Positions 13,371-51,590 of a DNA stretch of 64,000 nt are shown piece after piece. The first letter of the stretch is position 1. Each line of letters begins with the position of its first letter. The DNA comes from a virus (taxonomy: Duplodnaviria > Heunggongvirae > Uroviricota > Caudoviricetes): the IMG/VR virus record IMGVR_UViG_3300010430_000005, positions 83,467 through 147,466 of that record; one strand, 5' to 3'. The notes under the pieces were generated by a model that saw only the letters and a program-made list of their open reading frames with translations, was not told where the DNA came from and did not search any database. Made by a program: the position numbers and the translations under genes.

Positions 13371-13393
13371 GATTATAAATATAGAGGTATAAA

Positions 13394-16350: not shown

Positions 16351-16614
16351 GTGACAATTGAAAATATAAAAGCAGGGTTTTGGCAAGTTCAAGACAAAGT
16401 TGATAAATCAACTATCCAAAAATTCACAAGTTCATGTGACCGTGATGATTGCTGTGTCAGTGCCAGAATGATTAGCGAAACAACTTGTATGGGAATATCA
16501 GACCATTATTATAAACAGGGTAGATTAATTATCAGCGATCACAACAGGCATAAAGTTTCTATGTGTTGTAGTAAATGTTGGCGTCATGAAGTGATGAATA
16601 ATTATGAAAATTGA
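16351..16614 (+). CDS. Cys-rich hypothetical protein
   Basis: GTG start after RBS repeat. Confidence 0.6.
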   Translation: MTIENIKAGFWQVQDKVDKSTIQKFTSSCDRDDCCVSARMISETTCMGISDHYYKQGRLIISDHNRHKVSMCCSKCWRHEVMNNYEN

Positions 16615-16804
16615 AACAGAAGATTATTTTTGGGAATGCGGCGATGGTTGCTGCACTCAATACGGAACCTATCTGTATATTGATGGAAAGCTACTGGAAG
16701 ATCGTGAGTTTAGTAGTTCTGGAGATGCTTATCAGTATGTTCTAAAAGAAATGCTAGGTCACGAAGTAGATTATATCTACAATGAGGATGAGGATGAAGA
16801 ATGA
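16604..16804 (+). CDS. small acidic phage protein (WECGDGCC)
   Basis: motif common in myophages. Confidence 0.7.
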   Translation: MKIETEDYFWECGDGCCTQYGTYLYIDGKLLEDREFSSSGDAYQYVLKEMLGHEVDYIYNEDEDEE

Positions 16805-16965
16805 AACCTGATGGAAAATTAATAGCAGAACAACTTGCAAAAGAATTGGCAAGTGTTCAACCAATGCCTAGTGATTGCTTGAAAAATTTATATGAAGCAA
16901 GCAAATCGGAAGATGAACTTAGGAAAGATGGATATGAACCTGTTAGCGGTTTGGGTCTTATGTGA
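16801..16965 (+). CDS. 54-aa protein with capsid Gol-like segment (QLAKELASVQPM)
   Basis: ATGA coupling; 6/12 identity to gp23 residues 94-105 LIAYDIAGVQPM. Confidence 0.65.
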   Translation: MKPDGKLIAEQLAKELASVQPMPSDCLKNLYEASKSEDELRKDGYEPVSGLGLM

Positions 16966-16972
16966 GTAAAAG

Positions 16973-17110
16973 ATGAGTAACAATTGGATAAACTGGCGAT
17001 TTGGTAAATATCATTTGCAAATCGGACCAGATGAAAGGTTTTGGATTAGTTTTAGGAAGAACACTTTTTGGGTTTCTCATTCTTATGAGAAATGGTTTGA
17101 GAGGTATTAA
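16973..17110 (+). CDS. small Trp-rich hypothetical protein
   Basis: 45-aa ORF filling the gap. Confidence 0.5.
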   Translation: MSNNWINWRFGKYHLQIGPDERFWISFRKNTFWVSHSYEKWFERY

Positions 17111-17318
17111 ATGAAAATAAAAGCATCAACTACAATTCAACTACCAAAATGTATTGACAAATTTCCTACGGAAACTTGGTGCAGAAAAAAGGAAACGTAT
17201 CCTAACATTCTTTGGACTTTGGACAGCAGAAGATGAATTGTATGAAATTCTGTCGGAAGAAATCCGTAATGAAATTGACAAAGAAATTCTTGCAAAGGTG
17301 AAAATAAATGAAAACTAA
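17111..17318 (+). pseudogene. small protein with gp23 spine-helix-like segment; apparent +1 frameshift within 17119-17164
   Basis: RKLGAE..GLWTAEDELYEILSEEIRNEIDKEIL versus gp23 RALKAE..GLDAETELSNILASEVLAEINREVV. Confidence 0.65.
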
Positions 17319-50240: not shown

Positions 50241-51551
50241 TTACATAAGATTGGAAATCCTAACGCGGCGGTAATATTAATTAGTATTCGCTGTTAGTGC
50301 GCCAGAACCTTGGTCAGCACCTTGTGCAAACGGATTCGCAACCATGCCGTAGCGTGTTTTGAAGCCGATCTTAGGCTGGAATGTGTTTTCACCAACCGCA
50401 CGAACCATCTGTAGCGGAACGTATGGGCAGTAAAATAGACCTGCATCAAATGCGCTTGCGCCTTTGTAGCCTACTACCATGTAGTTAGCACCCGCATATG
50501 GGTCAATGTAAACACGGAAGCGACCGTTTAGAACACCAGCAAAAGTGTTGCCTGTGTCGTCTACGTTCAATGCGTTGCTGTTAAGAGCAGGAGCATAGTC
50601 TAGGACGCCTGCCATCTGTAGAGCCGATGCAACATCGCTCGAACAAATGATTATGTTACCTTTACCTCTGCGTGTTCCTTTTGCGATAGCGTTAGCTTCA
50701 CGCTCGATCTGGAACATAAGACCTTTAAACTTCTCAACGCTCCAACGACCGTTTGCGTCTACGTCTAAGTCAAATACACCGGCAGTTGCTGTACCTTCAG
50801 AAGCACCTGTTACCGCAGTGTTGTATATAGTACGAACAACTTCACGGTTGATTTCTGCAAGAACTTCACTTGCTAGGATGTTTGAAAGTTCAGTTTCGGC
50901 GTCTAGACCGTGTACCGCTTTCAAGTCCTGAGCTAGTTCAGTAGTGTATTCTGCCTTAAGCGCGCGGCTCTTAGCTTCCACAGCTACTTTCTCGATTGAG
51001 AACGCCATTTCTGCAAACGCTGTACCGCCAGTAACACCTAGTGCTTCTGCGTCGCCAGTAGCAATACCAGTACCAGTGTTAGCAGTAGCTGCTGTACCAG
51101 TAGTGCCTTCCATAGTGCCTGTACCTGCGAAGTCAGTATCTGCTTCGTTGTACATTGCTTCGGTCCAAGTTGCGTTGTTTGCAGGTGTGTTAGCATACTT
51201 AGAACGCATAGCAAAGATCAAGCCAGTTGGGCCAGTCATTGGCTGTACGCCTGCGATGTCGTATGCGATTAGGTTAGGCACGGAACGACGAACTAAGCTT
51301 ATCAACACAGGGTCATAACCTGCAGTTGGGCCAGTTGCTGTTGCGCTGCTACTAAAACCACCAGTGCCAGAAACGTTAGTTGTTTCCATCAAAGAAGTCA
51401 TTCTTGCGGAAGTAGGATCTTCTTTAAGAGCGATTTCAGTGTTCTCTAGAATAGTGGCGGTAACGCTTTTTCTGTGAGAGTCTTTGATCGAATCAAAAGA
51501 TTCGTGCTCAAGAATTGGCTGCCACTTGTTAACAATAGAGTTGTTATCCAT
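50241..51551 (-). CDS. gp23: major capsid protein (in-frame TAA at 50277-50279, 11 codons before the expected end)
   Basis: DPVLISLVRR..GVQPM.GPTGLIFA, SRALKAEY, KGL..RGKGN, FYCPYVP, GFKTRYG; YYRRVRISNLM follows the TAA. Confidence 0.97.
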
Positions 51552-51582: not shown

Positions 51583-51590
51583 TATTTATA
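51583..51590 (-). promoter_or_regulatory. T4 late promoter (also at 52612, 53321, 58263, 63795)
   Basis: TATAAATA immediately upstream of late genes. Confidence 0.85.

What the first reader, a model, noticed from the sequence alone, without database searches (positions are those of the whole stretch)
16801..16965. Early mini-protein carrying a copy of the capsid Gol-like segment
Seen: a 54-aa ORF missed by the ORF track, ATGA-coupled to the upstream gene, encodes QLAKELASVQPM. This aligns with LIAYDIAGVQPM (gp23 residues 94-105, 51237-51272) at 6/12 identity, plus I/L, D/E, I/L and G/S. Known: this part of T4 gp23 is the Gol peptide that triggers the Lit protease, and several defence systems sense major capsid proteins. 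Inference: the ORF is a stand-alone capsid-epitope mimic made early, acting as a decoy or competitive inhibitor of capsid-sensing immunity, or possibly as an inter-phage trigger.
Basis: partly seen in the sequence, partly recalled or inferred. Interest (0 to 1): 0.8.

Follow-up and report, generated by a model that had tools for sequence, protein, structure and literature searches.

The report
Small phage protein copying capsid Gol segment
The 54-codon gene is a real, slightly truncated member of an undescribed family of tiny proteins found only in phages with T4-type capsids; its first half copies the short capsid-protein segment (Gol) that is known to bind the host translation factor EF-Tu, so it may engage EF-Tu or capsid-sensing immunity, but this is untested.

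Summary
ORF 16801-16965 is ATGA-coupled to the upstream gene and preceded by a GAGGA ribosome-binding site. It belongs to a conserved family of about 60-70 aa proteins: 70 cluster representatives, and dN/dS of 0.08-0.14 for close pairs.

The family profile matches one other place in the phage's own genome, gp23 residues 80-106. In T4 its only match is gp23 residues 94-120, in the first quarter of the protein, where a review places the Gol segment. The reverse search with Pfam Gp23 finds the mini-genes. hhalign gives 92% probability.

All 12 genomes examined that carry the family or its motif have a Gp23-type capsid, and none of 185,579 bacterial and archaeal species genomes carries it. The gene sits among early or replication genes, never next to gene 23.

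Two caveats apply to the window copy. It lacks the first third of the Gol-like segment. It also ends at a TGA exactly where 21 of 22 full-length relatives have Trp and one has Tyr, and an independent data set shows the same TGA.

Function is not shown. A co-fold with EF-Tu domains II-III gave only weak support (0.59 against 0.01 for the best control). The decoy idea is plausible but untested.

The parts
16801..16965 (+). Gene for the 54-aa mini-protein (P0001), stop codon included
   Evidence: It is a family member at E 6e-25 against the family profile.
16791..16804 (+). GAGGA ribosome-binding site 5 nt before the ATG, and ATGA overlap with the stop of the upstream 66-aa ORF (16604-16804)
   Evidence: Read directly from the sequence.
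16816..16869 (+). Residues 6-23 (KLIAEQLAKELASVQPMP): the Gol-like segment kept in this copy. AlphaFold2 predicts helix 1 plus the VQPMP loop.
   Evidence: hhalign aligns residues 1-24 to gp23 84-107. Conservation table. AlphaFold2 model with pLDDT 89.
16930..16962 (+). Residues 44-54 (GYEPVSGLGLM): the family's second conserved motif, cut short here
   Evidence: Family consensus GYxPVSxxGLxWxK. It forms a beta-hairpin in the model of the full-length member P0016.
16963..16980 (+). TGA stop at the position of the family's conserved Trp, then in-frame VKDE and TAA. Read-through would give ...GLGLM-W-VKDE, which matches the family's C-terminus.
   Evidence: The TGA is also present in a contig of an independent study.
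51234..51314 (-). gp23 residues 80-106 (DPVLISLVRRSVPNLIAYDIAGVQPMT), the segment the family resembles; equivalent to T4 gp23 94-120
50277..51551 (-). Major capsid protein gene (gp23 type), preceded by a late promoter TATAAATA at 51583-51590

Best explanation
ORF 16801-16965 is a real protein-coding gene. It is a shortened member of an undescribed family of about 60-70 aa proteins restricted to phages with T4-type (Gp23) capsids. The N-terminal half of the family, LIxxIRKxxPxxIAxELxSVQPM, is a homologue or mimic of the gp23 N-arm segment that lies where the Gol peptide is placed (T4 gp23 94-120). The C-terminal half, two short helices plus a GYxPVS...GLMWIK hairpin, is specific to the family.

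Inferred mechanism: the protein is made from the early/middle gene block before gp23 appears. It engages the partner that the isolated Gol segment is known to bind, EF-Tu domains II-III. By doing so it either pre-empts EF-Tu- or capsid-based immunity (Lit-type proteolysis, MCP/EF-Tu sensors) as a non-activating competitor, or it tunes EF-Tu use.

Shown: the gene, the family, the purifying selection, the specific sequence relationship to the Gol segment, and the restriction to Gp23-type phages. Inferred: EF-Tu binding, the timing, and any anti-defence role. The confidence figure refers to the EF-Tu-partner mechanism. For family membership and the Gol likeness I hold about 0.9.
For: Family:
- 70 representatives at E<1e-3 in an exhaustive phmmer search.
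- 156 phage records hit by tblastn.
- 18 IMG/VR loci.
- dN/dS 0.08-0.14 in close pairs.

Likeness to the Gol segment, tested in both directions:
- The family HMM against all 2539 six-frame ORFs of the phage's own genome hits only itself and gp23 80-106 (E 9.5e-4; the next hit is E 2.2).
- Over the whole T4 genome its single hit is gp23 94-120 (E 7e-5). It also hits gp23 of DLP_6 and KP179.
- 22 of 67 members hit Pfam Gp23, and no other Pfam family is hit by more than 3.
- One member passes Pfam's own cut-off, 25.3 against 24.4 bits.
- The Pfam Gp23 model finds the mini-genes in three genomes.
- hhalign gives 92.4% probability, P 5e-7.
- 14 positions are conserved in both the family and gp23.

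Distribution and context:
- 12 of 12 genomes carrying the family or its motif have a Gp23-type MCP.
- The gene lies in early or replication contexts.
- There is no late promoter nearby.

Known biology (PMC3014915): a 29-residue gp23 region in the first quarter of the protein defines Gol. It binds EF-Tu domains II-III and is the most conserved part of gp23.

Co-fold of the family alignment with E. coli EF-Tu 205-394: weak support. The score was 0.59 and the best of 3 controls 0.01. That mark was reached by 58 of 80 solved complexes and 2 of 110 mismatched pairs, but at 0.60 or under by only 7 of those 80 and by both mismatches that passed. The runs agree in at least 67% of contacts, and the partner's pLDDT is at least 46.
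Against: - There is no experimental or contextual link to any defence system.
- The co-fold pass is of the weak class, described by the tool as more often wrong than right unless the guess was likely beforehand. It used a stand-in EF-Tu, and the partner's fold in the complex was uncertain.
- AlphaFold2 models the Gol-like segment as an amphipathic helix packed into a small fold. The conserved residues could therefore be structural and not a binding surface.
- EF-Tu is extremely abundant, so simply occupying its Gol site by competition seems inefficient.
- Motif 1 also occurs inside larger enzymes: a Vibrio phage Kuja 328-aa 'ATPase' and the N-terminus of a Dickeya phage PLP-dependent enzyme. 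A dedicated decoy does not explain that.
- The window copy lacks the N-terminal third of the segment and the W-x-K strand.
- Mini-proteins are not closer to their own phage's gp23 than to other phages' gp23 (n=6).
Confidence: 0.33

Rival explanations
1. Capsid-assembly or capsid-targeting mimic. The segment copied is the part of the gp23 N-arm that lies inside the unexpanded prohead, probably touches the scaffolding core, and later forms inter-capsomer contacts. The mini-protein, and the enzymes carrying motif 1, would bind the scaffold (gp22), the portal or gp23 itself. They would thereby modulate assembly or be carried into heads.
For: In T4, gp23 aa 66-105 are disordered and point inward in the unexpanded head, probably contacting the scaffold. 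A94V and G97S change head length, and Met98 contacts the portal whisker (PMC9546572). These residues lie inside the matched segment 94-120. The family is restricted to phages with Gp23-type capsids. Fusion of motif 1 to enzymes would fit a targeting tag.
Against: The gene never lies in the head-gene cluster and has no late promoter. There is no co-variation with the phage's own gp23. It is predicted to be a compact helical fold, not an extended arm. Binding to gp22 or gp23 was not tested.
Confidence: 0.2
2. Relic of descent with an unrelated job. An ancient capture of the 5' part of gene 23 gave a small helical domain whose conserved residues now only hold its own fold together. The protein would serve some early function, for example an adaptor in replication or nucleotide metabolism, with no functional mimicry of gp23.
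For: AlphaFold2 gives a confident compact fold in which the motif forms helix 1 and a loop. In two lineages the gene sits inside the gp45-gp44-gp62-regA cluster, in Xoo-sp13 directly after DNA polymerase, and in Atu_ph04 after nrdA. Motif 1 is embedded in enzymes. There is no own-pair co-variation.
Against: The 14 positions conserved in the family are the same ones conserved in gp23 across very distant phages. That is unexpected if the two copies were under unrelated constraints. There is no universally conserved neighbour. The weak co-fold pass with EF-Tu also argues against this reading.
Confidence: 0.3
3. The window's copy is a decaying or disabled allele. A TGG-to-TGA change removed the conserved W-x-K strand, so whatever the family does, this copy does it poorly or not at all, unless UGA is read through.
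For: All 22 full-length relatives from IMG/VR and metagenome loci keep W (one has Y) followed by x-K. Only the window copy has TGA there, and VKDE-TAA follows in frame. W-I-K is strand 2 of the hairpin in the P0016 model. TGA is a normal stop in this genome: 53 of 153 long ORFs end in it, and the only tRNA-Trp has anticodon CCA.
Against: The same TGA is present in a contig from an independent study, so it is not an assembly error and has persisted. Natural short forms with motif 1 only exist: 47-57 aa in P0059, P0067 and KP179 gp161. The rest of the ORF is intact, with a good RBS. This rival is compatible with any of the others.
Confidence: 0.3
4. Chance resemblance: the VQPM match has no biological meaning.
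For: For this ORF alone the match is weak. BLASTP does not report it. The gp23 profile gives E 6.5. The 12-mer has a shuffle p of about 0.006 before correcting for the many ORFs compared.
Against: Reciprocal profile hits in five or more independent genomes, each time as the only or the top off-target hit. hhalign P 5e-7. 22 of 67 members hit Pfam Gp23.
Confidence: 0.03

Closest known systems
Gol segment of T4 gp23
   Same: The sequence pattern L-I-x-x-(I/V)-R-(R/K)-x-x-P-x-x-(I/L)-A-x-(D/E)-(I/L)-x-x-V-Q-P-M is shared over about 27 residues. The family profile's only hit in the T4 genome is gp23 94-120. The Gol segment alone binds EF-Tu domains II-III (PMC3014915), and a co-fold of the family with those domains gave a weak pass. 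That Gol spans about residues 93-122 is my recollection of Georgiou 1998 and Bingham 2000, which are not held in the library.
   Different: It is a stand-alone 54-70 aa protein, not part of a capsid subunit. It has S/N where gp23 always has G before VQPM, and P-S/N-D instead of x-G-P-x-G after it. It has its own helical and hairpin C-terminal half. It is encoded among early or replication genes. Lit activation and EF-Tu binding are untested.
PHROG phrog_21284 ('hydrolase'), e.g. Klebsiella phage KP179 gp161
   Same: P0001 residues 8-33 match this PHROG at E 9e-7. KP179 gp161 carries IAKQLASVQPMPDNCIKD and is hit by the family profile at E 4.5e-10.
   Different: The Klebsiella proteins (57 aa) have motif 1 only and lack GYxPVS...GLMWIK. 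Nothing I found supports the 'hydrolase' label: there is no Pfam hit.
Pfam PF07068 Gp23 (T4-type major capsid protein)
   Same: Model positions about 3-32 match family members. One member exceeds the gathering score.
   Different: Only about 8% of the model is covered. No HK97-fold body is present, so the mini-protein is not a capsid protein.
Phage anti-defence proteins that compete with a structural-protein trigger, e.g. DSAD1 against DSR2 and the tail tube protein (PMC11087589, title and abstract seen)
   Same: The concept: a small non-structural phage protein counteracts a sensor of a late structural protein.
   Different: As far as I know, DSAD1 is not a sequence copy of its trigger. Here the likeness to the trigger is the only evidence, and no sensor is identified.

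Membership tests
Gol-like mini-protein family (this report; overlaps phrog_21284) | Motif 1: (I/L)-A-x-(E/D)-(I/L)-x-x-V-Q-P-M, followed by P-x-(D/N) | tested here: met
   P0001 has IAEQLAKELASVQPMPSD. It scores E 6e-25 against the family HMM and E 9e-7 against phrog_21284.
Gol-like mini-protein family (this report; overlaps phrog_21284) | N-terminal extension L-I-x-x-I-R-K-x-x-P that completes the Gol-like segment | tested here: not met
   P0001 starts MKPDGKLIAEQ and lacks the R-K and P positions. Several other members are equally short.
Gol-like mini-protein family (this report; overlaps phrog_21284) | Motif 2: G-Y-x-P-V-S-x-x-G-L-x-W-x-K (C-terminal hairpin) | tested here: inconclusive
   GYEPVSGLGLM is present, but the ORF stops at a TGA in place of W. 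W-VKDE follows in frame.
Pfam PF07068 Gp23 major capsid protein | Match to the 376-position model above the gathering score, i.e. the HK97-fold body | tested here: not met
   P0001 has no Gp23 hit at E<=1. Family-level matches cover only model positions about 3-32.
Functional Gol peptide (cofactor for Lit cleavage of EF-Tu) | Binds EF-Tu domains II-III | tested here: inconclusive
   The co-fold gave weak support: 0.59 against a best control of 0.01, with partner pLDDT of at least 46. There is no biochemical test.
Functional Gol peptide (cofactor for Lit cleavage of EF-Tu) | Carries the 13 critical residues of the 20-residue Gol core (Copeland & Kleanthous 2005) | not testable with these tools
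   The paper is not held. Only the summary in PMC3014915 was read.
Functional Gol peptide (cofactor for Lit cleavage of EF-Tu) | Promotes (or blocks) Lit proteolysis of EF-Tu at Gly59-Ile60 | not testable with these tools
   This needs an in vitro or in vivo assay.

The most novel reading that the evidence does not exclude
T4-superfamily phages carry a dedicated, ancient family of early mini-proteins that copy the Gol/N-arm segment of their own major capsid protein. Through it the proteins bind EF-Tu domains II-III, forming non-productive complexes. Those complexes blunt EF-Tu- and capsid-dependent abortive-infection systems (Lit-type proteases, MCP/EF-Tu STAND sensors) before gp23 is synthesised. 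This would be a trigger mimic used as an anti-defence decoy.
Probability: 0.15. Interest if true: 0.85.

Novelty: new variant of a known kind. Interest (0 to 1): 0.62.

Why it matters
[quoted passage not shown] It is the classic example of a phage peptide that triggers abortive infection through EF-Tu, yet why phages keep it, and whether they protect it, is unresolved. A recent preprint also places EF-Tu inside an MCP-sensing Avs7 complex (bioRxiv 10.64898/2026.01.04.697583).

A widespread, selected, stand-alone copy of exactly this segment gives a concrete handle. If it binds EF-Tu or a sensor, it would be a case of a phage using a copy of its own trigger as a counter-measure or regulator, and I found no described example in the papers searched. 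It would also help explain the segment's conservation. If it binds scaffold or portal instead, it would mark the N-arm segment as a portable assembly signal. Either result can be tested with simple binding assays and phage knock-outs.

Tried and rejected
- **Close DNA relatives.** Megablast of the region against phage records found no match.
- **Word-indexed protein search.** It found only the protein itself. The exhaustive search was needed.
- **P0014.** This 1815-aa hit is a low-complexity repeat protein matching 'MPSECLENI', and I discarded it as spurious.
- **Structure searches of the AlphaFold2 model.** Foldseek against the PDB gave nothing. VIA-align wide gave a best Z of 2.7, which is not meaningful. 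The ESM Atlas feature search gave no usable hit.
- **P0045.** Its N-terminal 'GHMAHGKTSLAAAI' looked like the EF-Tu P-loop, but Pfam scores ABC_tran, GTP_EFTU and AAA_16 about equally and all below threshold. It is a generic P-loop-like stretch, not a link to EF-Tu.
- **Co-variation.** Each mini-protein against its own phage's gp23 segment showed none (permutation fraction 0.67, n=6).
- **Conserved neighbours.** There is no universal one.
- **Bacterial genomes.** The pattern scan found no relative.
- **Expression.** No RNA holder was listed for this stretch.
- **Alternative genetic code or suppressor tRNA for the TGA.** Rejected. TGA ends 53 of 153 long ORFs, and the only tRNA-Trp has anticodon CCA.
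- **Decayed gp23 pseudogene spanning 16801-17318.** Considered because the two gp23-like bits are collinear with similar spacing. Rejected for ORF54, because its non-gp23 half is conserved as part of an independent family.
- **Primary Gol papers.** Not held, so exact Gol residue numbers are from my recollection and the T4 numbering is.
- **Literature search for 'VQPM'.** Nothing relevant.

Full report
**1. What is at the coordinates**

ORF 16801-16965 (+) encodes MKPDGKLIAEQLAKELASVQPMPSDCLKNLYEASKSEDELRKDGYEPVSGLGLM. Its ATG overlaps the TGA of the upstream 66-aa ORF (ATGA), and GAGGA lies 5 nt upstream.

The window is part of a 150,280-bp IMG/VR virus record estimated at 75% complete. The record has 40% GC, 30 tRNA genes and a tmRNA-like gene.

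The major capsid gene is at 50277-51551 (-), with Pfam Gp23 E 3e-141.

**2. Is the pairwise match more than chance?**

Only 0.6% of 5000 shuffles reach its score. On the other hand, BLASTP does not report it, and a gp23 profile scores this single ORF at only E 6.5. Given the many small ORFs in the window, the pair alone would not be convincing.

**3. The family**

- An exhaustive phmmer search found 70 cluster representatives at E<1e-3, mostly 58-100 aa.
- tblastn found relatives in 156 phage records. These include Agrobacterium Atu_ph04, Stenotrophomonas Marzo, Mendera, Yut2 and DLP_6, the Xanthomonas jumbo phage Xoo-sp13, and many Klebsiella and Raoultella T4-likes.
- A pattern scan of IMG/VR gave 18 loci.
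- The consensus is ..LIxxIRKxxPxxIAxELxSVQPMPxDxxxxLxxxSKSExELxxxGYxPVSxxGLxWxK.
- Close pairs give dN/dS of 0.08-0.14, and distant pairs have saturated synonymous sites with pN no higher than 0.43. The gene is under purifying selection as a protein.
- No Pfam family covers it. PHROG phrog_21284, labelled 'hydrolase' without visible basis, matches residues 8-33 at E 9e-7.

**4. The likeness to gp23 at family level**

- The family HMM was searched with all filters off against all 2539 six-frame ORFs of the phage's genome. It hits only itself and gp23 residues 80-106, DPVLISLVRRSVPNLIAYDIAGVQPMT (E 9.5e-4). The next hit is at E 2.2.
- Over whole phage genomes the family profile's only hit in T4 is gene 23, residues 94-120, AVMGMVRRAIPNLIAFDICGVQPMNSP (E 7e-5). 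It also hits gp23 of DLP_6 (5e-5) and KP179 (6.5e-5).
- In the reverse direction, 22 of 67 members hit Pfam Gp23, while no other Pfam family is hit by more than 3.
- Member P0070 exceeds Pfam's gathering score, 25.3 against 24.4 bits.
- The Pfam Gp23 model run over whole genomes picks out the mini-genes of Xoo-sp13, Atu_ph04 and an IMG/VR phage as its only sub-threshold hits outside the capsid genes.
- hhalign of the family against a gp23 alignment gives 92.4% probability, P 5e-7.
- Fourteen positions are conserved in both sets. Relative to the V of VQPM they are: -19 L, -18 I, -15 I/V, -14 R, -13 K/R, -10 P, -7 I, -6 A, -4 E/D, -3 L/I, and VQPM itself.

The matched T4 segment lies in the first quarter of gp23. 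The review PMC3014915 places the 29-residue Gol region there and describes it as binding EF-Tu domains II-III and as the most conserved part of gp23. From my recollection Gol spans about residues 93-122, but the primary papers are not held.

The matched segment also overlaps the N-arm region that is disordered and inward-facing in the unexpanded T4 head. That region contains the head-length mutations A94V and G97S and the portal contact Met98 (PMC9546572).

**5. Distribution and context**

- Every genome examined that carries the family or its motif has a Gp23-type capsid gene: 7 phage records, 4 large IMG/VR contigs and the window's own genome, 12 of 12.
- T4 itself lacks the mini-gene.
- No relative was found in one genome of each of 185,579 bacterial and archaeal species.
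- The gene never sits near gene 23. In DLP_6 and an IMG/VR lineage it lies inside the gp45-gp44-gp62-regA cluster. In Xoo-sp13 it lies directly after DNA polymerase, and in Atu_ph04 after nrdA. In KP179 it is in the pin-gene 49 region near a glutaredoxin gene. In one metagenomic phage it is among 7-deazaguanine synthesis genes.
- There is no universally conserved neighbour.
- In the window it lies in a run of tightly packed +-strand small ORFs. TATAAATA late promoters precede the --strand structural genes, and the nearest on the + strand are at 13374 and 13608.
- Early or middle expression is therefore inferred, not shown. No RNA data set was listed.

**6. Structure**

AlphaFold2 with the family alignment gives confident small folds.

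- For P0001 (pLDDT 89): helix 5-17, loop SVQPMPSD, helices 26-33 and 37-42, and a tail.
- For the full-length member P0016 (pLDDT 88): one long helix 3-22 covering the whole Gol-like segment, the VQPMPNN loop, two short helices, and a hairpin formed by Y-K-P and W-I-K.
- No solved structure resembles the model.

**7. Peculiarities of the window copy**

- It lacks the LIxxIRKxxP third of the segment, as do several other members.
- It stops at TGA (16963-16965) exactly where the 22 full-length relatives laid out have Trp (one has Tyr) followed by x-K. VKDE-TAA follows in frame and overlaps the next ORF's ATG at 16973. The copy therefore lacks strand 2 of the hairpin.
- TGA is an ordinary stop in this genome, and the only tRNA-Trp has anticodon CCA.
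- A contig from an independent study also carries the TGA, so it is not an assembly error.
- Either this allele is impaired, or the short form suffices (natural 47-57-aa forms with motif 1 only exist), or some UGA read-through supplies the full form.

**8. Function**

The only experimentally established partner of the isolated Gol segment is EF-Tu. A co-fold of the family alignment, with P0001 as the chain folded, and E. coli EF-Tu residues 205-394 gave the verdict 'weak support'.

- The score was 0.59 (runs 0.68, 0.43, 0.59), against 0.01 for the best of three controls.
- That mark was reached by 58 of 80 solved complexes and 2 of 110 mismatched pairs. At 0.60 or under it was reached by only 7 of those 80, and by both of the mismatches that passed.
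- The runs agree in at least 67% of contacts. The partner's pLDDT is at least 46, so its fold in the complex is uncertain.
- I know of no solved Gol-EF-Tu complex, so the pass is unlikely to come from memory of one.

This raises the odds of EF-Tu binding modestly and proves nothing.

Several points count against a pure decoy. EF-Tu is very abundant. The motif is predicted to be part of a folded helix. Motif 1 is also embedded in a Vibrio phage Kuja 328-aa 'ATPase' and at the N-terminus of a Dickeya phage PLP-dependent enzyme, which suggests a portable interaction or structural module.

Rival partners suggested by the T4 head structures are the scaffold, the portal or gp23 itself. These were not tested. 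A recent preprint shows EF-Tu built into an MCP-sensing Avs7 complex and notes that T4 MCP binds EF-Tu. That makes an EF-Tu- or capsid-related immune role worth testing.

**9. Verdict**

The interpretation as an immune decoy is a reasonable but untested hypothesis. I put EF-Tu engagement at about one in three and a true anti-defence decoy at about one in seven. I found no description of the family in the databases and papers searched.

Noticed in passing
TAEDELYEILSEEIRNEIDKEILAKV aligns to gp23 ~217-242 at E 0.0066. In an independent study's contig one base at 17162 is missing. tblastn found no relatives in phage records.
   Followed up: partly
window 16855-17300 against gp23 residues 102-242: The two gp23-like bits (VQPM in ORF54 and the DAExEL..EI..EI helix in the next-but-one ORF) are collinear with gp23 and similarly spaced: about 357 nt in the window against about 336 nt in gene 23. 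They lie in different reading frames, with an unrelated 45-aa ORF between them. This is unexplained and may be coincidence.
   Followed up: no
P0001 residues 44-48 and gp23 residues 78-82: The family's second conserved motif GY(E/K)PV equals the conserved GYDPV that immediately precedes the Gol-like segment in gp23 (GYDPVLISLVRR...VQPM). It was BLASTP's top local match and is conserved in gp23. Both conserved motifs of the mini-protein are therefore contiguous in gp23 but occur in permuted order in the mini-protein.
   Followed up: no
L007 2024-3010 (Vibrio phage Kuja) and L008 2474-3775 (Dickeya phage Ds16CZ): Motif 1 occurs inside larger Ackermannviridae proteins. One is a 328-aa 'ATPase' with EQIAKELTEVQPMPSDCL at about residue 170, sharing 15/19 identities with the window ORF. 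The other is the N-terminus of a 433-aa PLP-dependent enzyme (Pfam PALP E 4.5e-7).
   Followed up: partly
L043 2438-2656 and 3542-3892 (IMG/VR contig): One phage carries two paralogues of the mini-protein about 1 kb apart.
   Followed up: no
genome C1 1618-15111 and 18978-19299 (outside the window): The phage record encodes 30 tRNAs, including seven tRNA-Met(CAT), and a tmRNA-like gene with tag ANDNYAPEMAIAA.
   Followed up: no
window 16549 and 17169: There are C>T differences in contigs of an independent 2015 study labelled with a single organism name. The runs are small and hold 13-85% of the stretch's sampled words. This may point to the host or to a co-sampled organism, but the names are coded.
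   Followed up: no
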